DNA of 64,000 nt from Candidatus Aldehydirespiratoraceae bacterium. Lineage in GTDB: Bacteria > Actinomycetota > Acidimicrobiia > Acidimicrobiales > Aldehydirespiratoraceae. The stretch spans positions 614,565 through 678,564 of the forward strand of contig CBDBEW010000005.1 of assembly GCA_965204595.1 (NCBI GenBank), in the 5' to 3' direction. The translations under genes and the position numbers were made by a program. Within the stretch, counting starts at the first letter, position 1. Each line of letters starts with the position of its first letter. The notes below the pieces were generated by a model. It did no database searches and was not told where the DNA came from. It saw only the letters and a program-made list of their open reading frames with translations. Below are positions 19,860 through 31,901 of this stretch, piece by piece.

Positions 19860-22652
19860 ATGTCCGATTCCTTGCTGCCACCATTTCGCTATGACGCCAA
19901 GATGGCAAACAAAATCGAATCGCACTGGCAGAACTATTGGCGCAAGCATGGCACCTATAACGCCCCAAACCCTAAAGGAGCGTTGTCAGATGACCCACTG
20001 GGATTAACTGATCGGCAAAAATTGTTCATAATGGACATGTTTCCTTATCCTTCTGGGGTGGGTTTGCATGTTGGGCACCCCCTCGGCTTTATCGCGACCG
20101 ATGTGTACGCACGGTTTAAGCGGATGAGCGGCTACAACGTTTTGCACACGATGGGTTTTGATGCCTTTGGCTTACCCGCAGAAGAACACGCCCGTCAAAC
20201 TGGTGAGCACCCCCGCAAAAACACCGAACGCAACATCGCCAATATGCGTAGGCAGTTGCAGCGACTAGGCCTCGGACACGATGAGCGGCGAACGTTCGCC
20301 ACAACAGACCCGCCATATTATCGCTGGACACAATGGATTTTCTTGCAACTCTTCAACTCGTGGTTTGATGTTGAGCAAAATCGCGCTCGTCCAATAGGCG
20401 AACTCGTTGATGAATTTAACGAAGGCAAAAGGGCACCTCAAAACGGCCAAGATTGGTCAAATGCCGATGACACGATGCGTTTGCGTATTTTGGAGTCTTA
20501 CCGTTTGGCATATGTTGACCAAGCACCAGTCAATTGGTGCCCTGGGCTTGGAACTGTGTTGTCTAACGAAGAGGTTACCGCTGAAGGATTATCTGAAAGA
20601 GGTAACTTCGCGGTTTTTCGTCGTCCACTCAAACAGTGGATGATGCGCATAACTGCTTATGCCGATCGCTTGCTTGATGATCTAGAACTGCTTGATTGGA
20701 GTGATGCCATCAAAACCATGCAGCGCAACTGGATTGGACGCAGTTATGGTGCCTACATCAACTTTGGTACGATCAGGGTATTCACCACGCGGCCCGACAC
20801 AATATTTGGCACAAAGTTTATGGTTTTAGCTCCTGAACACCCGCTAGTAGACGAACTAACTCCACCACAATGGCCTCAAAACACTAGTGAGCAGTTGCGT
20901 GGCGGATTTTCTGACCCGCGTGCTGCGGTGGCGGCCTATCGGCAGGGTGTGGCTGCGAAGAACAACCACGAACGGCAAGACAATACAGAAAAGACCGGGA
21001 CTTTTATTGGGGCAACTTGTCGTGTTCCAGTTAATGACCGCGAGGTTCCTGTGTTCATCGCCGATTATGCGCTAATGGATTATGGCACTGGCGCGGTGAT
21101 GGGTGTGCCCGGCGAAGACCAAAGAGATTGGGATTTCGCCAAGAAATATGGATTAGACATCATCCGCACGGTGCAACCCCCAAATGATTTTAGTGGTGAA
21201 GCATATGTCGGCGAAGGTTCAGCTATAAACAGCGGTTTTTTAAACGGATTGAGCAAGGCCGAAGCCATAACCACTGCCATCGAATGGCTTGAAGAGCATG
21301 ATTTTGGCGAGGGTGCAGTCACATATAAACTGCGCGACTGGTTGTTTAGCCGTCAACGTTATTGGGGTGAACCCTTTCCAGTTGTTTTTGGTGATGATGG
21401 CCTAGCCCGTGCGCTTCCTGAGGAGCACCTTCCGGTCACCTTGCCCGAACTGATTGATTGGGCACCCAGGTCTCTGGAGGAAGATTCTGAACCTGAACCA
21501 CCGCTGGGTCGGGTATCTAAGTGGCGAGAAGTCGAACTTGATTTGGGTGAAGGTGTGAAGACTTATCAACGTGAACTGAACACCATGCCGAACTGGGCTG
21601 GGTCGTGCTGGTATTACCTGCGCTACCTTGACCCCAACAACGATTGCTCCCTTGTTGATCCCGATATTGAAAAATACTGGATGAGCAATCCTGACGACCA
21701 AGTTGGCGGGGTTGACCTTTATGTCGGTGGAGTGGAACATGCGGTTCTGCATCTGCTTTATGCCAGATTCTGGCATAAGGTTTTGCACGATCTTGGTTAT
21801 GTCAGTGGCCCCGAACCATTTAAACGGCTGATCAACCAAGGTTATATTCAAGCAGCCGCGTTCCAAGATGCCCGCGGTGCGTATGTGAGAGCCGATGAAG
21901 TGGTTGGTGATGCCCAGTCTGGTTTTGTCTTTGAGGGCACTGAAGTGACGCAAACCTTTGGCAAGATGGGGAAATCCCTTAAGAATGCGGTCACACCAGA
22001 CGACATGTATCAAGCCTACGGTGCCGACACGCTAAGACTTTATGAGATGTCGATGGGTCCCATCGACCAAGACCGTCCCTGGGAAACCCGATCGGTGGTC
22101 GGCTCGTTTCGTTTGTTGCAGCGTGTTTGGCGAAACCTCATAGATGAACAAACTGGTGATTTGTTAGTTGACCACGGCGATGCCGATGAAGTGTTGCAGC
22201 AGTTGTTGCACCAAACGATAGCTGGTGTTTCAGCAGACATGGACAACCTGCGCTTCAACACCGCAGTTGCAAAAATTACCGAACTCAACAATTTCCTAAC
22301 CAAGGACTACGCAAAGATTCCACGACAAGTTGCCGAGGCGTTGGTGCTAATGCTGGCTCCGCTGGTGCCTCATTTAGCAGAAGAGCTTTGGTCACGACTT
22401 GGCAATACGAGTTCGGTGACCCAGGAAGCGTTCCCCAAAGCTGATCCCCGCTATCTCGTGGCGCATACGATTGAGATTCCAGTGCAAGTTAACGGTAAGT
22501 TGCGAGCCAGAATTTTTGTGTCACCACAAGCAAGTGACGACGATGTTGTCAAGTTGGCACTAGCTGAAGTGAATGTGCTAGAACATATCGGCATCAAGGA
22601 AATTCGTAAAACTATTGTGGTGCCTGGCCGCATGGTGAGCTTCGTGGTCTAG
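19860..22652 (+). CDS. leuS: leucine--tRNA ligase
   Basis: About 930-aa ORF (GTG 19854 or ATG 19860). It has the HIGH motif (HVGHPLG), the KMSKS motif (KMGKSLKN) and a CP1 editing-domain insertion. Confidence 0.95.
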   Translation: MSDSLLPPFRYDAKMANKIESHWQNYWRKHGTYNAPNPKGALSDDPLGLTDRQKLFIMDMFPYPSGVGLHVGHPLGFIATDVYARFKRMSGYNVLHTMGFDAFGLPAEEHARQTGEHPRKNTERNIANMRRQLQRLGLGHDERRTFATTDPPYYRWTQWIFLQLFNSWFDVEQNRARPIGELVDEFNEGKRAPQNGQDWSNADDTMRLRILESYRLAYVDQAPVNWCPGLGTVLSNEEVTAEGLSERGNFAVFRRPLKQWMMRITAYADRLLDDLELLDWSDAIKTMQRNWIGRSYGAYINFGTIRVFTTRPDTIFGTKFMVLAPEHPLVDELTPPQWPQNTSEQLRGGFSDPRAAVAAYRQGVAAKNNHERQDNTEKTGTFIGATCRVPVNDREVPVFIADYALMDYGTGAVMGVPGEDQRDWDFAKKYGLDIIRTVQPPNDFSGEAYVGEGSAINSGFLNGLSKAEAITTAIEWLEEHDFGEGAVTYKLRDWLFSRQRYWGEPFPVVFGDDGLARALPEEHLPVTLPELIDWAPRSLEEDSEPEPPLGRVSKWREVELDLGEGVKTYQRELNTMPNWAGSCWYYLRYLDPNNDCSLVDPDIEKYWMSNPDDQVGGVDLYVGGVEHAVLHLLYARFWHKVLHDLGYVSGPEPFKRLINQGYIQAAAFQDARGAYVRADEVVGDAQSGFVFEGTEVTQTFGKMGKSLKNAVTPDDMYQAYGADTLRLYEMSMGPIDQDRPWETRSVVGSFRLLQRVWRNLIDEQTGDLLVDHGDADEVLQQLLHQTIAGVSADMDNLRFNTAVAKITELNNFLTKDYAKIPRQVAEALVLMLAPLVPHLAEELWSRLGNTSSVTQEAFPKADPRYLVAHTIEIPVQVNGKLRARIFVSPQASDDDVVKLALAEVNVLEHIGIKEIRKTIVVPGRMVSFVV

Positions 22653-23402
22653 TAGCCATTCGTTGATAGGCGTACCGTTCTCATCAGCTTCTTCAATTGG
22701 GATGCTTGTGTCAACTGTGCCCTCAAGCCTTGATATCGATGCCCAAGCGCGTTCTCGTTCTGCGCGTTCGAGATATTTGGTGGCTAGTTTATTGTCGCAG
22801 CGTTTAGCGCAAGATTCGGCGCGCTTTAGGTACTTCTTGTTCCGCCTGTCGTTTCCTCGCGCCGCGAACTGTGACACGGAATAAAACATGCCACCGTGTT
22901 GGTTTTCTGGCGCAAGACCTTGTGATTTGAATTGATGGTGAACGTAATGCAACTTTGTTCGCATCGTCTCCAAGTGTTTTTCTTCTGTGCGTGCTCGACG
23001 CAACAATTCCTTACGTTCCTTATAGTGTTTGGCGTTCTCAGCTTTTAGTTCAAGTTTGGTGACTTGGTACATTAAGTATCTGACAGCAAATTCGTTGTAG
23101 CATAACCGTTCCTTCATGTCAAAAGGTATGACCCTCTTTGCAGTTACAGTCTTCGTGACGATCCGCAAACGGTACCTGGCCAGGAAATCAAGCGCAAGTC
23201 CTGCTAGCCAAGCCGCTATCCAGAATTCCCACCAATCTAGGAGACCAGCGAACGTCAATATTCCTAATATGGTCGCGGCAGTCAACATCACCACACCCAT
23301 CACATAAGCTATCAATGCTAAATTGTCTTGAGCAAAACTAGCTCGGTGACCATCCGGCCAGCAAACTCTATTCGCTAAACCCAACATGGCTCCACTCACC
23401 AC
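22578..23402 (-). CDS. hypothetical membrane-anchored coiled-coil protein
   Basis: 274-aa ORF with two N-terminal TM segments and a Lys/Arg/Glu-rich helical region. The 3' end overlaps the leuS 3' end by 75 nt (convergent). It directly abuts the upstream gene (stop 23403, start 23402). Confidence 0.45.
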   Translation of the reverse strand: MVSGAMLGLANRVCWPDGHRASFAQDNLALIAYVMGVVMLTAATILGILTFAGLLDWWEFWIAAWLAGLALDFLARYRLRIVTKTVTAKRVIPFDMKERLCYNEFAVRYLMYQVTKLELKAENAKHYKERKELLRRARTEEKHLETMRTKLHYVHHQFKSQGLAPENQHGGMFYSVSQFAARGNDRRNKKYLKRAESCAKRCDNKLATKYLERAERERAWASISRLEGTVDTSIPIEEADENGTPINEWLLDHEAHHAARHHNSFTNFLDADMF

Positions 23403-24236
23403 CTAACAACCAACCCTCACCCTCGGATTGCAACTGGGTGTGAATTTACGCTTCGAGGACTTATTTTCGTTTGAATTTTGGCTCAACTTACGAACAATTC
23501 GAGTTGCGGTAGCTATGCATTGTGTTTGTTGGCACACGTTATAGGCTGTGTACAGCTTAGGAGTTAGTAACGCAACCCTGAATGCCAAAGGCACGAATAT
23601 GGCAATCCATGCAGGGTCGGCAACTACTGGATACACTGCATTCTTATGCTCGACGGTCTGAATTAGAGTAGAACCATCAAGCCGGTAGCTTGTTGGCACT
23701 GCATTGCCTGTTGAGTCGAACGCCCATGGTGCAGCAATACCGCCGGATTCTCTGTTAAAATTGTCGTAGAATCTAATTGAGCCATCAGCAAGCGGTTTGG
23801 CAGAATAGCCCGCGGGTATCGCGTTATCAAAGTGATATTCAGTAGCGGCTTGGTTGTTTGCGATTTGAATAAGCGCAGCCAGATATGAATTATCGGTTGG
23901 CTTAACAATAATCAATTCGGCATTATCGTCGTCAACAACCACATCAATCTTGGACGGAATGTTCACACCGGGTACCCATACCGTGTCAAACGTTGGTATG
24001 CCTGTATTGCCGACCGGTCCAATCTGCCGATCATCTTCAAGGGCATCATTTGCTGGTGATTCTGTTTCGGTAAGCACGACATCGTTGATGGTGGCTGGCT
24101 GGTTAGTGTCGGGTTCAGCTTGATGTCTATCGGGATCCATGTCAGTTGCAGCAGTTGGTACAGCTATTGCAAGAGTCGCTATTATGGAAAATGCTGACAA
24201 AGACCGTAAGCAACGAAAGAATGATCTCCGCTTCAT
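23403..24236 (-). CDS. hypothetical secreted protein
   Basis: 277-aa ORF with an N-terminal signal-like segment (SAFSIIATLAIAVPTAA). No family recognised. Confidence 0.5.
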   Translation of the reverse strand: MKRRSFFRCLRSLSAFSIIATLAIAVPTAATDMDPDRHQAEPDTNQPATINDVVLTETESPANDALEDDRQIGPVGNTGIPTFDTVWVPGVNIPSKIDVVVDDDNAELIIVKPTDNSYLAALIQIANNQAATEYHFDNAIPAGYSAKPLADGSIRFYDNFNRESGGIAAPWAFDSTGNAVPTSYRLDGSTLIQTVEHKNAVYPVVADPAWIAIFVPLAFRVALLTPKLYTAYNVCQQTQCIATATRIVRKLSQNSNENKSSKRKFTPSCNPRVRVGC

Positions 24237-24505
24237 ATAGGTGCCTCTATTAAAGTTTTCACATTATCATACATACTGATTTTGTTGTGTGCAAATTACG
24301 CGATTTACCTCAGATTCTGTGTTGCGCCTGCAACCTTTCCCGAAACGACTCAGTGTTGAAATCCGATGTTTGCTGACTGATGGTAGTGTGATGGGGTGAG
24401 CGATTCTCTCCAATTTTGCCAATCCCACGTTATCGGACAGTGACTGCTCCTGACCTGCCCAAATCTGGCTCAAGCAGCGTTCTGCCCGTGCCGGGTGCCC
24501 ACGAG

Positions 24506-27500
24506 ATGCTTGAACGGTTGCGATTACTGCTGCGCGAGATGTTCCAACTTGATCGCGGCGACCTGGACTTCGGTTTGTACCGGATCATGAACTTAAAGGC
24601 GGCGCAGGTTGCTGAGTTCCTAGACAACGACCTGCTACCGCAGGTGCAACAGTCCCTGCAACTCGCCGGCAATCAGGAGCACGCTAATCTGGAGAAAGAG
24701 TTGGAGGAGGCCCTCGCCGACCTTGGACGGTTGGGTGTCGATCCCGAGGCTGGGCACTCGTCGAAGATCACCGAATTGAATCACAGGCTTACTGAGATCA
24801 AGAAGGATTCCGGTACCGAAGCCGATGTCTACAACCATCTCGCTAACTTCTTTTCCCGCTATTACGTTCAGGGCGACTACATCTCCCAGCGCCGCTACTC
24901 AAGCGGTGGTAGATCTTCCTATCTCATTCCGTACGACGGTGAGGAGTTGAAGCTGCACTGGGCCAACTCTGACCAGTACTACGTCAAGACCACGGACAAC
25001 TATACGGCCTATGCCTTCACGGTCGGGGCTGGAAGCACAACCCGAAGGGTGCGATTTGAAATCGCAGCAGCTGACAATCAACGAGACGACATCAAGGATC
25101 CCGATGGCAAGCAGCGCCGTTTTGTGCCCGCCCGAGGCGGGAACGCCATCGTGATGGAAGGGGAGGACCTAGTCATCCGTTTTGAGCACCGGCCGTTGAC
25201 CGAGGGCGAGAAGAAGTCCTATCCCGGCAACGGTTCCACGCAGCAAAGCCGTATCAACGAAGCGATGGTGGCACAGGTACTGAAAGCCGTCACCGATAAC
25301 TGGCAGGCTCATTTGACCGCCGCAGACCCCACCGAGACCAACGGTGGGCGCATGTTGCTGGCCAAACATGTCGAGCGTTACACCGCGAAAAATAGTTTCG
25401 ACTACTTCATTCACAAGGACCTGGGAGGGTTTCTGCGCCGCGAATTGGATCTATACCTAAAGACGGACGTGTTGAACCTTGACGATCTAGAGCAGGGCGA
25501 TGCGGCCCGACTCAATCGGGCACTGGCCCGGGTACGAGCAGTCCGCCACATCGGCGGGAAGATCATAGACCTACTAGCCCAACTCGAAGAGTTCCAAAAG
25601 CGGCTCTGGTTGAAGAAGAAGTTCGTGCTCGAAACCAACTGGTGCGTTACCTTGGATCGCGTCCCCGATGAGATGCACGCCGAGATCGCTACGAACACCG
25701 CCCAGTGCGATGAATGGGTTGAACTATACACCATCGATGAGGTCGAGGGTGACTTGACAAACGGCAATCTGACTTGGAGTAATCCGCCGAGCACAACGTT
25801 CCTGAAAGCCAATCCTTACCTCGTGCTCGACACTAAGCACTTCAACCGTGAATTCACCGACCGCCTGCTGGCATCACTCTCTGATGCGGGGCCGCTAGAC
25901 GAGCAAACGGACGGGTTACTCGTGCATGGTGAGAACTTTCAGGCGCTGAACTTGTTGCAGGCAAGATACCGAGAGCAAGTACAGTGCATCTACATTGACC
26001 CGCCTTACAACACGGGTACTGATGGATTCTTGTACAAGGACCAGTACAAGCATTCATCATGGATTTCAATGTTCTCAGACCGCGCCAAAGTTGCCAGACA
26101 ACTACAATCAGCTAGGGGTGTTTTCTTCTTCTCTATTGACGAGACAGAATGTGCTCGCGCCTGGCAATGTATGGAACAACTCTATGGTGTCGAGAACTTT
26201 GCTTCAGAGATTATCTGGGAAAAGAAGAAGAAGCCATCTTTTCTCCACCGCAACGTAGGTAAGCTCACAGATTTTATTCTGGCGTTTAATAAGCAGGCAA
26301 CATCGAGTCCGCCTTACTCCGTAGAAAGCACTACCGAGAACAAGCTCACACCACTGAATAATGCTGGCAACCAACTCGGCGTTCTGAAGTTTCCCGCAGA
26401 TTCCGTGAGATTTGGTTGCGAAGATGGAACTATTCGTGCTCAAGACATGTCAAAGGGCAACGTAGTGACACGCCTATTGGATGATGTAACTATCCGCAAT
26501 GGATCGAACGATAATGACTTCCAGATGGAAGGTGAGTGGAGGTATTCTCAAGCGAAACTGGATGAAGTGCTACAGACCGGCGAAAAATTGTACATAAATG
26601 GGGTTCCCTTTAGGCCAAACCATATCAAACCTGGAGGCAAAATCAAAAAGATGAAAAATATTCTGTCTCCAGATCACTATGGAATGGAGACGAACGAAGA
26701 TGCCTCTCAACAGATCCGCGACCTATTCGGTAATGATGCCTTCATCAATCCAAAACCGGAGAGACTAATGAGACACTTAGTCAAGAGTGTCACTCACGGC
26801 ATGAATGACGTAGTTGTGCTGGACTATTTTGCTGGTTCCGGTACGACTGGACATTCTGTAATAAACCTCAATCGTGAGGACCATTGTCACCGAAAATACA
26901 TCCTCGTAGAGATGGCCGACTACTTCGATACGGTCTTGTTGCCTCGCCTCAAGAAGATTATCTACTCGCCCGATTGGAAGAGCGGCAACCCAGTGAGCCG
27001 TGCAGGCAGCAGCCAGTTGCTAAAGTACGTTCGTCTGGAGGGGTACGAAGACACCCTAGACAGCCTCGAAGTCGCGTCGCTTTCGGATGGGCAGATGGAA
27101 TTGCTAGGCAGGAATCCTGACTTGGCTGAGGATTACCGGCTTCGCTACGCGCTTGATATTGAGACGACTGGTAGTGCTTGCTTGCTCGGTGATGAGCTAA
27201 CGGAACCGTTCTCCTACACGCTTTCTGTAGTACGAGATGGTGCGCGCCGGGAGGTCCAAGTGGACTTGCCCGAGACCTTCAACTACCTGATCGGCCTACG
27301 AATGGAGTCCCGCCGTCGAATCGACGGAATCCTGGCCATCACAGGGACAGATCCCGAAGGGCGTAGGTGTCTGGTGCTGTGGCGCAACCTCACGGAAATG
27401 AATCACTTGGCCTTGGACGCTTGGTTTCAGACCCACAGAGACCAATTTTCAGAGTCTCCAAATATTGTCTACGTGAACGGCGATCACACACTTCACGCGA

Positions 27501-27577
27501 CTCGTGAAGCAGACGAGAACTGGACTGTGAAGAACATCGAACCGATCTTCCGTCAATTGATGTTTGAAATGACGTGA
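24506..27577 (+). CDS. type III-like N6-adenine/N4-cytosine DNA methyltransferase (Mod) with long N- and C-terminal extensions
   Basis: ORF 24416..27577 (TTG); the ATG at 24506 is preferred. Motif IV (YIDPPYNTG) precedes motif I (VLDYFAGSGTTGH), which is the beta-class order. HGENFQALNLL, FFFSIDE and NFASEIIWEK blocks are typical of PF01555-type Mod proteins. About 480 aa upstream of the catalytic core and about 200 aa downstream are unassigned. Confidence 0.8.
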   Translation: MLERLRLLLREMFQLDRGDLDFGLYRIMNLKAAQVAEFLDNDLLPQVQQSLQLAGNQEHANLEKELEEALADLGRLGVDPEAGHSSKITELNHRLTEIKKDSGTEADVYNHLANFFSRYYVQGDYISQRRYSSGGRSSYLIPYDGEELKLHWANSDQYYVKTTDNYTAYAFTVGAGSTTRRVRFEIAAADNQRDDIKDPDGKQRRFVPARGGNAIVMEGEDLVIRFEHRPLTEGEKKSYPGNGSTQQSRINEAMVAQVLKAVTDNWQAHLTAADPTETNGGRMLLAKHVERYTAKNSFDYFIHKDLGGFLRRELDLYLKTDVLNLDDLEQGDAARLNRALARVRAVRHIGGKIIDLLAQLEEFQKRLWLKKKFVLETNWCVTLDRVPDEMHAEIATNTAQCDEWVELYTIDEVEGDLTNGNLTWSNPPSTTFLKANPYLVLDTKHFNREFTDRLLASLSDAGPLDEQTDGLLVHGENFQALNLLQARYREQVQCIYIDPPYNTGTDGFLYKDQYKHSSWISMFSDRAKVARQLQSARGVFFFSIDETECARAWQCMEQLYGVENFASEIIWEKKKKPSFLHRNVGKLTDFILAFNKQATSSPPYSVESTTENKLTPLNNAGNQLGVLKFPADSVRFGCEDGTIRAQDMSKGNVVTRLLDDVTIRNGSNDNDFQMEGEWRYSQAKLDEVLQTGEKLYINGVPFRPNHIKPGGKIKKMKNILSPDHYGMETNEDASQQIRDLFGNDAFINPKPERLMRHLVKSVTHGMNDVVVLDYFAGSGTTGHSVINLNREDHCHRKYILVEMADYFDTVLLPRLKKIIYSPDWKSGNPVSRAGSSQLLKYVRLEGYEDTLDSLEVASLSDGQMELLGRNPDLAEDYRLRYALDIETTGSACLLGDELTEPFSYTLSVVRDGARREVQVDLPETFNYLIGLRMESRRRIDGILAITGTDPEGRRCLVLWRNLTEMNHLALDAWFQTHRDQFSESPNIVYVNGDHTLHATREADENWTVKNIEPIFRQLMFEMT

Positions 27578-27580
27578 TCG

Positions 27581-30500
27581 ATGACTCAAAGTGGTGCGAC
27601 CGTCCTTGAGAACCGCCTAGTCCTGCACCGCTTTGTCTGTCAGGAGTTCGGATACGACGACTTGGGCGCGATGCTTGACCAACTGAACCAGGTGCGACCC
27701 GAACTAGGGTTCATCGGTGAAAGCGACTACGTCCAAGCGCTACGACTGCACAGTAAACGCGCCAAAATCCGTGTGGGACCCATGGAACTGGCTGAGTACG
27801 ACAGGAACATCGCGACGCACAGTCGCGAGTTGCGAATCACTCTAGAACATGGTCGAACCTGGAAGCCTCATCAATACCTGGCTCTGTTGTTTACCGAACA
27901 CTACTTGAGCCGCTACTTCGATGACCCTGAAGCACTCCGAAACGATCTAAACGACAAAAAGAGCAGCCACCGACTCACGAGTTTGATGCCGGACTACGAA
28001 CCGAACGACCTGCGTACGCTGGCCTTCCAGAGTGCCACCGGCTCGGGCAAGACGCTGCTGATGCACACCCACATCCTGCAATACCGGCACTACCTAGCTC
28101 GGGCCGGCGGTCGGCTCAACAACGTAGTGCTAGTGACACCCAACGAACAGATGTCGTCGCAGCATCAGCGCGAGATGCAAAGCAGCGGTATCCCCGCTCG
28201 CCTGTTCTCCATTGAGGCTGGCTCCGAGCTATTTTCCCCGGTCGAGATTATCGACGTGAACAAACTGGCCGAGAAGCAAGGCGTTAAACGAGTGGCGGTG
28301 GCGGACTTCGGCGACGATAATCTGGTGCTGGTGGACGAGGGCCATCTGGGTACGTCGGGCAAGGTGTGGCGGGAGCGGCGGCGAGAACTGGGGACCGGCG
28401 GGTTCACATTCGAGTACTCGGCCACCTTCAACCAAGTGGTGAACAAGAAGGAGGCAGACCTGCTCAACGCCTACGGCAGATGTCTGCTATTCGACTACTC
28501 CTACCGCCGGTTCTATGAGGACGGCTACGGCAAGGATTCCGTTATTCTGAACCTTCCAGGTGGTGCCGAAGACGAGAACAGCGACATGTACTTGCTCGGC
28601 TGCCTGTTGACTTTCTTCCAGCAGTGCCAAATCTGGGAGAACAACGCCAGAGTTTGGGAGGCGTACAATCCGGCAAAGCCGCTATGGGTGTTCCTAGGCA
28701 AGACGGTGACAGGATCAAGCCGAGCCGACAAGGCGACTCGGTCCGACGTGATCCAGATCGTGGATTTCCTCGGTCGGGTGCTAGCGCATCGTGACCAAGT
28801 GCTACCGATGATTGAACTACTGCTGGCTGGGCAGTCTGGCTTACTGGACGATGCGGGCGGCGATTTTTTTCGCGGCCGATTCTCACACCTGAAACAGGGC
28901 AGACCCGAAGCCCTCTACGCCGACCTGTGTGAGACGGTTTTCAACGGGTCGGGACGATTGCACGTCGCCTATCTGACCCAGGGCGAGGGGGAACTTCATC
29001 TTCGAACCACCGACAACGAACCCTTCGGCGTGATTAACGTCGGAGACTCGGCATCACTCTACAAGTTGCTTTCCGAGAGACCCGACTCCGACTTCGATGT
29101 CCGAAAGGAGATGGGCTTCGAAGCTCGGCTCTTTGCCGATGTAGACCGGCCGGACTCAACGGTGAACGTTGTCATCGGTGCCCGGCGTTTCATCGCGGGA
29201 TGGAATTCTTGGCGGGTTAGCACCATGGGACTCATGCATGTGGGTGTGGGGGAGGGACCCGAGATCATTCAGATGTTCGGTCGAGGCATCCGGTTGAGGG
29301 GCCGGAACATGAGCCTGAAACGCCATCGGGAGACGGATACAGACTTTCCTCCCTTAAGCGATCAATTACTGGAACTTGAGAAGCTGTACATCTTCGGCCT
29401 TCGGGCAAACTACATGCAGACCTTCCGGGACTTGCTGCGAATGGGAGGGGTTAGGATCGAGCAGGATACCTTCACCCTACCCGTCACCTGGAACTTCGCG
29501 CAGACAAGTGATCTGAAACTGATCCGACTGAAACAAGGCCGGAAATACGATGTCTGCAAGGAGAGGCCGGTGCTTCCGGCCCCCAACGGCGAGGACCGAC
29601 CCGCCATAGTGACCCTAGACCTTTATTCGCGGCTCCAGTCCATCACGTCCCAGGATGGCTCAAACGGTGCCAATATGGACAAGATCACGTTCGGAAGGCT
29701 CCCGGACTACGCAGCCTTCTTCGACATCGTGCGTATATTAGACCGGCTGCTGTCGCGGAAACAGCAGAAAGGATGGAGCAACCTCGTCATCGAGAGAGAG
29801 ACCGTGGAACAGTTGCTGCAATCCAAGAATTGGTACGAACTCTACTTGCCGCCCGATCGCCAAGACATCTTCGGATTCGACCAGGTGCGAGCACTGGAGG
29901 ACATCGCCGTCGAGTTGATCACCGAATACGCCGACCGCTTCTGGCGCAAGAAGCGACGCAATTGGGAACACGACCAGATTGAGGTCATGACGCTCGGCGA
30001 GGACGACCCCAACAGGATCCATGATTACAAGCTGTCGGTCGATGCTACCAAGGACCAGTTGGTGGAAGAAGCGGTCGCCCTTGCTCGAACGCTCAAGGAG
30101 AACGATCCAGACAACCTGAAGGCTTGGTATGAGCACCTAGAGATCGGCACTATCCAGGTGAGTTCCCACGCATACCAGCCCCTGCTCTACGCTAAGGAAA
30201 CCCGTGTCATCGCGATTCAGCCCGTCCCCATTAACGAGAGCGAAAAGCGCGTGGTCGAGGACTTAGCGGGGCTGGCTGAGCGCGATGACCCTTGCCTGCA
30301 GGGCAAGGAATTGTTCGTCATCCGCAACCTCACCGGGGGTCGCGGGGTGTCGTTCTTCGACGACTTCGGTTACTACCCCGACTTCATTGTCTGGCTGCGA
30401 GACGAAAGCTCCCAACACGTTTTGTTTCTCGATCCCAAAGGGTTGGCCCGGTTCGGGCGGAAGGAGCGCAGGAAGGTCAAACTACACCACGAAATCGCCG

Positions 30501-30694
30501 AAACTGGGAACCGGGTGCGAACGGAAGACCCGAACCTGGAACTACACGCCTACGTGCTTTCGGTGACACCAGCTTCCGAGATCGATGACGGAAACCGCAC
30601 CTTAGAACAATGGAAACGGGACGGCGTTTATTTTTTGAACGACCCCGATTGCCTGCAACAGGTGATCAAGCATGCTCTCACTCGTACCAAATAA
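27581..30694 (+). CDS. type III-like restriction subunit (Res): SF2 helicase + C-terminal PD-(D/E)xK nuclease
   Basis: 1037-aa ORF starting 4 nt after the Mod stop. It has Walker A (ATGSGKT), a DEAH-like box (LVDEGH) and motif VI (QMFGRGIRLRG). The C-terminal YYPDFIVW...VLFLDPKG fits a PD...D-x-K nuclease. Confidence 0.8.
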   Translation: MTQSGATVLENRLVLHRFVCQEFGYDDLGAMLDQLNQVRPELGFIGESDYVQALRLHSKRAKIRVGPMELAEYDRNIATHSRELRITLEHGRTWKPHQYLALLFTEHYLSRYFDDPEALRNDLNDKKSSHRLTSLMPDYEPNDLRTLAFQSATGSGKTLLMHTHILQYRHYLARAGGRLNNVVLVTPNEQMSSQHQREMQSSGIPARLFSIEAGSELFSPVEIIDVNKLAEKQGVKRVAVADFGDDNLVLVDEGHLGTSGKVWRERRRELGTGGFTFEYSATFNQVVNKKEADLLNAYGRCLLFDYSYRRFYEDGYGKDSVILNLPGGAEDENSDMYLLGCLLTFFQQCQIWENNARVWEAYNPAKPLWVFLGKTVTGSSRADKATRSDVIQIVDFLGRVLAHRDQVLPMIELLLAGQSGLLDDAGGDFFRGRFSHLKQGRPEALYADLCETVFNGSGRLHVAYLTQGEGELHLRTTDNEPFGVINVGDSASLYKLLSERPDSDFDVRKEMGFEARLFADVDRPDSTVNVVIGARRFIAGWNSWRVSTMGLMHVGVGEGPEIIQMFGRGIRLRGRNMSLKRHRETDTDFPPLSDQLLELEKLYIFGLRANYMQTFRDLLRMGGVRIEQDTFTLPVTWNFAQTSDLKLIRLKQGRKYDVCKERPVLPAPNGEDRPAIVTLDLYSRLQSITSQDGSNGANMDKITFGRLPDYAAFFDIVRILDRLLSRKQQKGWSNLVIERETVEQLLQSKNWYELYLPPDRQDIFGFDQVRALEDIAVELITEYADRFWRKKRRNWEHDQIEVMTLGEDDPNRIHDYKLSVDATKDQLVEEAVALARTLKENDPDNLKAWYEHLEIGTIQVSSHAYQPLLYAKETRVIAIQPVPINESEKRVVEDLAGLAERDDPCLQGKELFVIRNLTGGRGVSFFDDFGYYPDFIVWLRDESSQHVLFLDPKGLARFGRKERRKVKLHHEIAETGNRVRTEDPNLELHAYVLSVTPASEIDDGNRTLEQWKRDGVYFLNDPDCLQQVIKHALTRTK

Positions 30695-30986
30695 CCGGCC
30701 ACACGCCTCAACCTCTTCCAATCTGGCAATCAGTTCGTTCGCGGGAGAAATTTAACGATCAACACCGATCCTGCGGTTTTTGGTTCCTTCAATGCTGAAA
30801 TCGGGGATGCCTCGTGGTCAACTACAGATACTCACCGGAACACCGTCACTACCAGCTAATTTCCGAAGAACTTGCTAGCCTCAATCGAGCGAAAAACGTG
30901 TCCGAAGGAAGAATACCCAAACTTTGTAATCTTAACCTTGACATCAGAGAATCTGGCAAATATCGGGAAGTAACGAGGAGGCATCT

Positions 30987-31691
30987 GTGGCTTTCAGACG
31001 AAAAAGGGCCGACGACTCACTCAACGTGCAATTGCGAGGATGCCTGGCTATGAGACCGGATCTAGGTGACGACGAAGACCTGTATAGCATTTTCCGTTCA
31101 ACAGCGACCTACCTCGGTTTTGATAACGGAACTCTCGGTCTTTGGGGTATGAATTTTGCAGAGCATAATTCAATAAGTTCAGGGCTAGATGTGGTCGCTG
31201 AGTTTCAAGTTGGTCCCTGGGTGCATTCAACTGAAATTTTCCCACAATTTCTCAAATGTGTGGAAATATCGCTAATGCAGTTAGGGAAATTTGAGTTGGC
31301 TGAAGTTGAAGCTACATGTGCACCGGGCATAGCGCAGAACATGACTAATCGGCTTAGTAGTAGCCTGGGTTTGTTCCGCGCACTCATTCCGACCAAACCC
31401 GTTCAAGCTCGAGCAAGTCTGAACTGGTATTTTGATGCGAAACATAAGGTACCAGACTTAGCGAAGCTGTATTCCGAGTATCATATCGAACCGTTTCGGA
31501 TAGAGCTAGAGTCTGACCCGACCATTGATAAGTCCAATAGGCTTTCGCTTCCGAGGCGCGGACATGTAACCGCAGCTGCTGTCTTGCCTGAGTTATCGCT
31601 AGACTGTGTAGGTTGGCTTGTCTCATTTCTAATCTCATCACTCGTGCCTGCTAGAGCCGAAGATATCACAGTCCTCTTGGAGCTAGAATGA
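30987..31691 (+). CDS. hypothetical protein (AT-rich block downstream of Res)
   Basis: 234-aa ORF with a GTG start preceded by GAGGAGG at about 6 nt spacing. No family recognised. Composition differs from both flanks. Confidence 0.5.
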   Translation: MAFRRKRADDSLNVQLRGCLAMRPDLGDDEDLYSIFRSTATYLGFDNGTLGLWGMNFAEHNSISSGLDVVAEFQVGPWVHSTEIFPQFLKCVEISLMQLGKFELAEVEATCAPGIAQNMTNRLSSSLGLFRALIPTKPVQARASLNWYFDAKHKVPDLAKLYSEYHIEPFRIELESDPTIDKSNRLSLPRRGHVTAAAVLPELSLDCVGWLVSFLISSLVPARAEDITVLLELE

Positions 31692-31901
31692 CAGAGGTTA
31701 GGATAGCTTGGAATGCGGGTGATGCTAGGCCCCAGCGTGATTCTAGGCCCCAGCGGGTGTGGCCGTGACCGTTGACTCCAATATTACGCGATTTGGTCGT
31801 CCTGGGTCTTATCGGATATTGGTTACTAACGGGCTGTTCTTCAAGCAGCGAACAAAATGTAATAGTCGATCGAGATCACCTCGTGTCTATAGAGTGATGT
31901 T

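What the first reader, a model, noticed from the sequence alone, without database searches (positions are those of the whole stretch)
24416..31691. Type III-like Mod/Res pair with a roughly 1020-aa Mod (large unassigned N- and C-terminal regions) and a trailing unknown gene
The core is a classical type III arrangement. Mod is a beta-class methyltransferase (DPPY before FxGxG) with a presumptive target-recognition region between the motifs. Res follows 4 nt later, with SF2 helicase motifs and a C-terminal PD..D-x-K nuclease, as in EcoP15I-type enzymes. What is unusual is the roughly 480 aa ahead of the Mod catalytic core (coiled-coil-rich, with blocks LDRGDLDFGLYRIMN and FDYFIHKDLGGFLRRELDLYLK). 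There is also a roughly 200-aa C-terminal extension and a roughly 150-aa N-terminal extension on Res. I have seen such blocks in long methyltransferases next to helicases but cannot name a characterised system. Downstream lies an SD-preceded 234-aa gene of unknown function in compositionally different DNA, which could be an accessory component or an unrelated hitch-hiker.
Basis: partly seen in the sequence, partly recalled or inferred. Interest (0 to 1): 0.6.

Follow-up and report, generated by a model that had tools for sequence, protein, structure and literature searches.

The report
Type III restriction system, long methylase
This is an intact two-gene DNA restriction-modification (self-marking and foreign-DNA-cutting) system of a widespread type whose E. 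coli relative Eco86II was characterised in 2021, so it is ordinary in kind; the gene after it is an unrelated neighbour, and the job of the methylase's large extra front domain is still unknown.

Summary
A Mod gene (24416/24506..27577, 1023-1053 aa) is followed 3 nt later by a Res gene (27581..30694, 1037 aa), and all quoted motifs are present.

The lengths are not unusual for the family. At least 8,000 Mod clusters and about 4,900 Res clusters share them end to end. PADLOC's REBASE-derived Type III models of matching length (1057 and 1154 positions) fit both proteins.

A characterised relative exists. Both proteins align end to end (34% and 33% identity) with the single Type III locus of E. 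coli NCTC86. That locus is Eco86II (m4C at GAGCC, cleavage about 25 bp from the site; Murray et al. 2021).

The window belongs to a well-supported sub-clade that lacks Eco86II's extra SNF2 ATPase gene.

- Only about 375 N-terminal residues of Mod are truly extra compared with EcoP15I Mod.
- This module folds confidently (pLDDT 84) but matches nothing in PDB or BFVD.
- Res is not detectably related to EcoP1I Res beyond shared motifs.
- The target-recognition domain is a recombined cassette (GC3 0.48 against 0.70).
- The 234-aa downstream gene never co-occurs with the pair (0 of 80 loci), so it is a hitch-hiker.

Verdict: new member of a known kind.

The parts
24416..27577 (+). mod gene: long Type III Mod methyltransferase. 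The ORF opens at TTG 24416; candidate starts are GTG 24488 and ATG 24506 (1023 aa). Residue numbers in this report count from ATG 24506.
   Evidence: PADLOC MTase_III PDLC03646, 653 bits. Pfam N6_N4_Mtase, 3e-30. 34% identity end to end with the E. coli NCTC86 (Eco86II) Mod.
24506..25900 (+). N-terminal module of Mod (aa 1-465). It is the signature domain of the long-Mod family and its function is unknown. It holds the blocks LDRGDLDFGLYRIMN (24548-24592) and FDYFIHKDLGGFLRRELDLYLK (25397-25462).
   Evidence: 2545 representative clusters (921 at E<=1e-30); in the 150 best hits listed it lies at the N-terminus, in proteins up to about 1170 aa. Median 71% identity to relatives. AF2 pLDDT 83.6. 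No Foldseek match at E<=1e-3 in PDB or BFVD. No Pfam family.
25997..26008 (+). Catalytic motif IV, DPPY (aa 498-501).
   Evidence: D498, P499 and P500 invariant and Y501 nearly invariant in alignment A1.
26141..26740 (+). Target-recognition domain (aa 546-745), a swapped cassette.
   Evidence: 8-16% identity to most relatives but 68-73% to five of them, including one with a diverged backbone. GC3 0.48 against 0.70 in the N-terminal module.
26828..26851 (+). AdoMet-binding motif I, FAGSGTTG (aa 775-782).
27056..27577 (+). Conserved C-terminal module of Mod (aa 851-1023), with no named family.
   Evidence: Median 63% identity. Aligned with the Eco86II Mod C-terminus. No Pfam hit.
27581..30694 (+). 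res gene: SF2 helicase-nuclease subunit, 1037 aa, starting 3 nt after the mod stop.
   Evidence: PADLOC REase_III PDLC03654, 493 bits. Pfam ResIII, 5e-7. 33% identity end to end with the NCTC86 (Eco86II) Res. 4882 homolog clusters.
28028..28345 (+). Helicase motif I QSATGSGKT (28028-28054) through motif II DEGH (28334-28345).
   Evidence: near-invariant in the family (D252 nearly invariant, all other positions invariant).
29270..29293 (+). Helicase motif VI, QMFGRGIR.
30374..30439 (+). PD-(D/E)xK nuclease motif, YPDF...FLDPK (aa 932-953).
   Evidence: P933, D934, D951, P952 and K953 are invariant.
30987..31691 (+). 234-aa gene of unknown function. It is NOT part of the system and lies in a separate compositional block.
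   Evidence: 0 of 80 related Mod loci carry it. Its homologs sit elsewhere. Six same-genus genomes have a homolog but no long Mod.

Best explanation
This is an intact, horizontally acquired two-gene Type III restriction-modification system of the Eco86II-like long-Mod family.

Inferred mechanism, by homology with Eco86II and EcoP15I:
- A Mod dimer recognises a short asymmetric site through its swappable TRD and methylates one strand. The base may be m6A or m4C; both characterised relatives make m4C.
- Res docks on Mod and uses ATP to switch the complex into a sliding state.
- Res cuts unmethylated DNA about 25 bp from a site when two inversely oriented sites communicate.

The conserved 465-aa N-terminal and 170-aa C-terminal modules of Mod co-evolve with this Res lineage. 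Most likely they form the scaffold that binds or controls Res; this is inference only. The downstream 234-aa gene is an unrelated neighbour.
For: - Mod core: it is homologous to solved Type III Mods by sequence (6k0w, 4zcf, 7dsu) and by fold.
- PADLOC assigns MTase_III and REase_III models.
- Mod and Res align end to end with the E. coli NCTC86 locus. That locus holds the only long beta-class methylase in that chromosome. It has the SNF2-Mod-Res layout described for Eco86II, for which methylation and cleavage were shown (PMC8259958).
- All catalytic motifs are invariant or nearly invariant in the family and present here.
- Res lies downstream on the same strand in 71 of 80 related loci. Of the other nine, eight are cut by a contig end within about 700 nt and one (L087) has only 2.4 kb of downstream sequence.
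- The distribution is patchy: a clear homolog in 1 of 17 other same-genus genomes.
- The third gene is absent from all 80 loci and from the nearest relatives. Its own homologs lack a Mod/Res neighbour.
Against:
- Identity to Eco86II is only 33-34%. The window's clade lacks the SNF2 gene that accompanies Eco86II.
- Res shows no detectable similarity to the classical EcoP1I Res, so extrapolating from the EcoP15I mechanism is indirect.
- Two Type III systems in the same paper needed Res for methylation, so the division of labour can differ.
- The role of the N-terminal module is pure inference.
Confidence: 0.85

Rival explanations
1. A methylation-marked defence system that does not work by classical Type III two-site cleavage. 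It would be DISARM- or BREX-like, with the large Mod N-terminal module and the divergent Res acting by another route.
For: Res is unrelated in sequence to EcoP1I Res. The N-terminal module has no known fold relative. Sister-clade systems carry a DrmD-like SNF2 gene (PDLC02619, 652 bits).
Against: Eco86II, a full-length homolog, cut about 25 bp 3' of its site on plasmids with head-to-head sites without the SNF2 protein (PMC8259958). There are no DrmA/B/C, PglZ or BrxC hits. The window's clade has no SNF2 gene.
Confidence: 0.07
2. A three-component system in which the 234-aa downstream gene is an accessory subunit or regulator.
For: It lies on the same strand 292 nt downstream and has a Shine-Dalgarno-like AGGAGG before its GTG start.
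Against: 0 of 80 related loci carry it, and the closest Mod relatives lack it. Its 71% homolog has no Res upstream. Distant homologs follow a TauD-BKACE-3HCDH operon. Six same-genus genomes have it without the Mod, and the one with a Mod lacks it. Its composition differs (GC3 0.44 against 0.71).
Confidence: 0.03
3. Functionally an orphan epigenetic methylase, with a Res that is silent or decaying.
For: Type III mod genes are known to act as epigenetic regulators (stated in PMC8259958; the mechanism is established knowledge). No expression data exist here.
Against: Both ORFs are full length and carry every family-invariant catalytic residue. mod has no simple-sequence repeat that could drive phase variation. 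The 3-nt spacing suggests co-translation.
Confidence: 0.05

Closest known systems
Eco86II (E. coli NCTC86) and BspHIV (Acinetobacter sp. H), the third group of m4C Type III R-M systems of Murray et al. 2021 (PLoS One 16:e0253267, PMC8259958)
   Same: Same Mod family end to end, including the N- and C-terminal modules (34% identity, E=0). Same Res family end to end (33%, E=8e-166). Same PADLOC models, PDLC03646 and PDLC03654. Same mod-then-res order, same DPPY and FxGxG motifs, and same GSGKT, DEGH and YPDF...DPK motifs.
   Different: The window has no SF2/SNF2 ATPase gene 5' of mod. It sits in a separate clade (SH-aLRT 100) of 39 rows, 38 of which lack that gene. The TRD is unrelated, so the recognition site differs, and the methylated base (m4C or m6A) is unknown.
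EcoP15I / EcoP1I, the classical Type III R-M enzymes (Mod2Res1; PDB 4zcf)
   Same: The Mod catalytic core is homologous (4e-46 by profile; Foldseek 8e-12). The gene order is the same. Res has the same layout of helicase motifs followed by a C-terminal PD-(D/E)xK motif and a similar length (970 against 1037 aa).
   Different: Mod has about 375 extra N-terminal residues of unknown fold. Res has no detectable sequence similarity to EcoP1I Res (hhalign probability 0.6) or to any PDB chain. The two Res proteins fall in different PADLOC REase_III models.
Class 1 DISARM (DrmD SNF2 + DrmMI methylase + DrmA/B/C)
   Same: Sister-clade loci of this family place a DrmD-like SNF2 gene next to a large methylase.
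   Different: The window's three proteins have no DrmA, DrmB, DrmC or DrmD hits, and there is no SNF2 gene at the locus. That DrmMI belongs to a different methylase class is my own recollection and was not tested.

Membership tests
Type III restriction-modification | Adjacent, co-oriented mod and res genes | tested here: met
   The mod stop is at 27577 and the res start at 27581. Res lies downstream on the same strand in 71 of 80 related loci.
Type III restriction-modification | Mod is a beta-class amino-methyltransferase with an internal TRD and is homologous to known Type III Mods | tested here: met
   DPPY at aa 498 precedes FAGSG at aa 775. PDB hits are 6k0w, 7dsu and 4zcf. Twelve PADLOC MTase_III models score at E<=1e-20.
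Type III restriction-modification | Res has SF2 helicase motifs plus a C-terminal PD-(D/E)xK nuclease | tested here: met
   GSGKT at 154, DEGH at 252, QxxGRxxR at 564, YPDF at 932 and DPK at 951, all family-invariant or nearly so. Pfam ResIII 5e-7.
Type III restriction-modification | Res is homologous to the classical EcoP1I/EcoP15I Res | tested here: not met
   hhalign of the Res profile against EcoP1I Res gives probability 0.6. There are no PDB sequence hits even at E<=1. The two fall in different PADLOC models. REBASE-derived models still class this lineage as Type III.
Type III restriction-modification | Single-strand methylation of an asymmetric site, and ATP-dependent cleavage about 25 bp away that needs inversely oriented sites | not testable with these tools
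   Shown only for the homolog Eco86II (PMC8259958).
Eco86II/BspHIV group (Murray et al. 2021, third group) | Full-length homology of Mod and Res | tested here: met
   The NCTC86 locus is the only long PF01555 methylase in that chromosome.
Eco86II/BspHIV group (Murray et al. 2021, third group) | A conserved SF2/SNF2 ATPase gene immediately 5' of mod | tested here: not met
   Upstream are two minus-strand ORFs with no family match. The genome's SNF2 genes lie elsewhere and reach at most 31-43% identity over partial stretches. The window's whole clade lacks the gene.
Eco86II/BspHIV group (Murray et al. 2021, third group) | m4C rather than m6A methylation | not testable with these tools
   This needs SMRT or LC-MS data.
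DISARM / BREX | Core genes DrmA/DrmB/DrmC, or PglZ/BrxC/PglX | tested here: not met
   The PADLOC scan of the three proteins and the two upstream ORFs gave only RM models.

The most novel reading that the evidence does not exclude
The 465-aa N-terminal module of Mod folds confidently, has no relative in PDB or BFVD, and is the most conserved part of the protein. It may be a functional module absent from classical Type III enzymes, for example the docking and control platform for this unrelated Res lineage, and for the SNF2 motor in the sister clade. If so, the long-Mod systems would form a mechanistically distinct class rather than a length variant. The SNF2-less clade would then be the minimal form in which to dissect it.
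Probability: 0.3. Interest if true: 0.5.

Novelty: new member of a known kind. Interest (0 to 1): 0.27.

Why it matters
For this locus alone, little: it adds one more putative Type III system of unknown specificity to a patchy defence repertoire. More broadly, a family with thousands of members has one partly characterised enzyme, no structure and no Pfam domain for over a third of its Mod. Its Res lineage cannot be linked by sequence to the EcoP15I paradigm. A two-gene member such as this one is a simpler starting point than Eco86II for three questions:
- what the N-terminal module does;
- whether these enzymes make m4C;
- why the sister clade needs an SNF2 motor.

Tried and rejected
- Pfam and NCBIfam on the Mod N- and C-terminal pieces, the Res pieces and the third gene, up to E=10: only noise.
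- PDB sequence and profile searches for Res: nothing.
- Full-length AF2 model of Mod with a shallow 40-sequence alignment: poor (pLDDT 59). It was usable only to confirm the core fold.
- Foldseek of the good N-terminal model against PDB and BFVD: best E=0.17 and 0.44, TM about 0.1, that is nothing.
- A PD-(D/E)xK or HKD reading of the conserved N-terminal blocks (PYDGEELK, IHKD) was considered and dropped. The spacing is atypical, there is no fold support, and Res already carries the nuclease.
- Phase-variation repeats in mod and flanking repeats of the island: none.
- Promoter and terminator scans: not above shuffled expectation.
- Literature searches by accession numbers and by DrmD / three-gene terms found nothing. 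The Eco86II paper was reached through an earlier scan note and then verified.
Full report
**1. What is there**

The window holds two tightly spaced plus-strand ORFs, 24416..27577 and 27581..30694. A third ORF, 30987..31691, follows after a 292-nt spacer.

The first ORF can start at TTG 24416, GTG 24488 or ATG 24506, giving 1053, 1029 or 1023 aa. Homologs conserve a PxPG just upstream of the ATG, so the start stays open. Residues are numbered here from ATG 24506.

**2. Assignment**

Mod findings:
- Pfam sees only N6_N4_Mtase in Mod, covering aa 492-805.
- PADLOC's REBASE-derived models fit. Mod matches MTase_III PDLC03646 (profile length 1057, 653 bits).
- By sequence, profile and fold, the Mod core matches the solved Type III Mods 6k0w, 7dsu (Mbo45V) and 4zcf (EcoP15I).

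Res findings:
- Pfam gives a weak ResIII hit.
- Res matches PADLOC REase_III PDLC03654 (profile length 1154, 493 bits).
- Neither Res alone nor a 31-sequence profile hits any PDB chain, even at E<=1.
- The profile shows no similarity to EcoP1I Res fetched from phage P1 (hhalign probability 0.6). EcoP1I Res belongs to other PADLOC models.
- The motif layout is nevertheless the same as in EcoP1I Res, as the table shows. No PD-type motif was picked up by pattern in EcoP1I Res, so only its DxK position is given.

| Motif | Window Res (1037 aa) | EcoP1I Res (970 aa) |
|---|---|---|
| Walker A | 154 | 87 |
| DExH | 252 | 226 |
| Motif VI | 564 | 530 |
| Nuclease motif | PD 933, DPK 951 | DSK 921 |

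**3. The lengths are the family norm**

- The Mod query found 7998 clusters (the candidate cap), all about 1010-1110 aa.
- Res found 4882 clusters, mostly 1015-1150 aa, at 63-70% identity over the whole length.
- The N-terminal 470 aa alone hit 2545 representative clusters at 50% identity, 921 of them at E<=1e-30. In the 150 best hits listed it lies at the N-terminus of proteins up to about 1170 aa; shorter hits look like fragments.
- The family occurs on 29 plasmids of Klebsiella, E. coli, Priestia, Hymenobacter, haloarchaea and others.

Against EcoP15I Mod (644 aa), only the N-terminus is really extra. EcoP15I has about 92 aa before and about 175 aa after the aligned core. Here the figures are about 467 aa before and about 218 aa after.

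**4. A characterised relative**

An earlier scan note pointed to Murray et al. 2021 (PMC8259958). I read the paper and it reports the following:
- Eco86II of E. coli NCTC86 methylates GAGCC to m4C, and Mod alone is sufficient.
- Partly purified enzyme cuts about 25 bp 3' of the site on plasmids with head-to-head sites.
- The locus has an extra helicase-like ATPase 5' of mod. That protein was absent from the active preparation.

I checked the link directly:
- The NCTC86 chromosome carries SNF2 - Mod (1040 aa) - Res (1126 aa).
- This Mod is the only long PF01555 methylase in that chromosome. That agrees with the paper's statement of a single Type III system.
- The window Mod aligns with it end to end (34% identity, E=0). 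The alignment covers the N-terminal blocks and the C-terminal module.
- The window Res aligns with its Res end to end (33% identity, E=8e-166).

**5. Position within the family**

Eighty loci from species-representative genomes were fetched and scanned by tblastn.
- Res lies downstream on the same strand in 71 of them. Of the other nine, eight are cut by a contig end within about 700 nt and one (L087) has only 2.4 kb of downstream sequence.
- An SNF2 gene matched in 26 loci. It lies 5' of mod in all but one, where the match is a weak downstream hit. With that one exception, these loci are the members more distant from the window (Mod 37-43% identical).
- That SNF2 protein is DrmD-like by PADLOC (652 bits).

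A quick maximum-likelihood tree of the N-terminal module places the window in a 39-row clade (SH-aLRT 100). In that clade 38 rows lack SNF2 and one is undecidable. The clade spans Pseudomonadota, Acidobacteriota, Nitrospirota, Latescibacterota, Spirochaetota and Actinomycetota. The remaining 44 rows split into 27 with SNF2, 11 without and 6 undecidable.

The window's own genome has only unrelated SNF2 genes elsewhere. Because this clade keeps the N-terminal module, the module cannot be merely a docking site for SNF2. That last step is inference.

**6. Mosaic Mod**

The table gives identity of the window Mod to 39 relatives, by region.

| Region | Median identity |
|---|---|
| N-terminal module | 71% |
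| Core-a | 64% |
| TRD | 12% |
| Core-b | 58% |
| C-terminal module | 63% |

- Five relatives share the TRD at 68-73% identity.
- One of those five has an N-terminal module only 50% identical.
- TRD GC3 is 0.48, against 0.70 in the N-terminal module and 0.71 in Res.

This is the TRD cassette exchange expected of Type III mod alleles. The constant backbone (N-terminal module, cores, C-terminal module and Res) co-varies.

**7. The N-terminal module**

With a 90-sequence diverse alignment, AF2 gives pLDDT 83.6 and pTM 0.63. The predicted layout is:
- a long helical hairpin (aa 23-119);
- a beta-sheet plus helices region (aa 157-295);
- a long helix (aa 333-369);
- a small mixed C-terminal part.

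Foldseek finds nothing at E<=1e-3 in PDB or BFVD. The strongly conserved stretch at aa 119-163 is poorly modelled in both models. That pattern would fit an interface that orders only on binding a partner, but this is speculation. PADLOC model PDLC03638 (816 positions) aligns from about aa 285 on. The second half of the module is therefore shared with a shorter Mod cluster.

**8. The third gene**

It is a real gene, with 10 homolog clusters, but it is not linked to the pair.
- It is absent from all 80 related loci and from the three nearest Mod relatives.
- Its 71% homolog has no Res upstream. Similarity to the window starts only about 115 nt before the gene.
- Homologs at 38-42% identity follow a TauD-BKACE-3HCDH operon.
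- Six same-genus genomes carry a homolog but no long Mod. The one same-genus genome with a long Mod lacks it.
- Its composition differs from the pair.

The two upstream minus-strand ORFs are likewise never linked to the pair (0 of 80).

**9. Acquisition**

A clear Mod homolog is found in 1 of 17 other same-genus genomes and in none of 13 genomes further out. The pair is more GC-rich than its flanks. It lies in the leuS-pntAA interval, which another first-stage note calls a mosaic. No integrase, flanking repeats or phase-variation repeats were found.

**10. Verdict**

This is an intact Type III R-M system, a new member of the Eco86II-like long-Mod family in its SNF2-less clade. The recognition site and the methylated base are unknown. 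The open question lies at family level: what the N-terminal module and the divergent Res do.

Noticed in passing
Related loci L011-L090, between mod and res (e.g. L011:13086-14423, L024:13063-14337, L039:12978-14141, L042:7273-8385, L049:11062-12246, L069:13452-14468, L071:13086-14234): In many relatives the mod-res junction holds 0.8-3.5 kb of varied cargo. The inserted genes encode AbiJ_NTD4 (14 loci), CAP12/Pycsar-type TIR, Shedu SduA_C, AAA_21 ATPases, IrrE/HTH, GmrSD_N, YhcG/DUF1016, Fic, RhuM and Bro-N proteins. The slot acts as a hotspot for defence or toxin-like genes, much as in Type I hsd operons. The window has none, with a 3-nt gap.
   Followed up: partly
window 26141-26740: The TRD of mod has GC3 0.48 against 0.70-0.71 in the rest of the pair. 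It is shared at about 70% identity with a relative whose backbone is only 50% identical. This points to recent cassette exchange across diverged backbones.
   Followed up: yes
window 24860-24994 (Mod aa 119-163): YYVQGDYISQRRY...IPYDGEELKLHWANSDQYYVKT is one of the most conserved stretches of the family. It nevertheless has the lowest confidence in both AF2 models, so it may be an interface that orders only in the complex.
   Followed up: no
L028:14632-16059: One relative has a second, shorter N6_N4_Mtase gene (475 aa) between the long mod and res, that is, two methylases in one Type III-like operon.
   Followed up: no
L005:5892-9840 and L006:5945-9828: Distant homologs of the 234-aa third gene sit directly after a TauD - BKACE - 3-hydroxyacyl-CoA dehydrogenase operon. 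This hints at a metabolic rather than a defence role for that family.
   Followed up: partly
window 31719-31754: An 18-nt unit (GTGATGCTAGGCCCCAGC) is duplicated in tandem just after the stop of the 234-aa gene.
   Followed up: no
window 22578-24236 (minus strand): Two adjacent ORFs of 274 and 277 aa have no match in Pfam or PADLOC. The 277-aa ORF has paralogs and homologs in several same-genus genomes, up to five copies in one. The 274-aa ORF overlaps the 3' end of leuS by 75 nt.
   Followed up: partly
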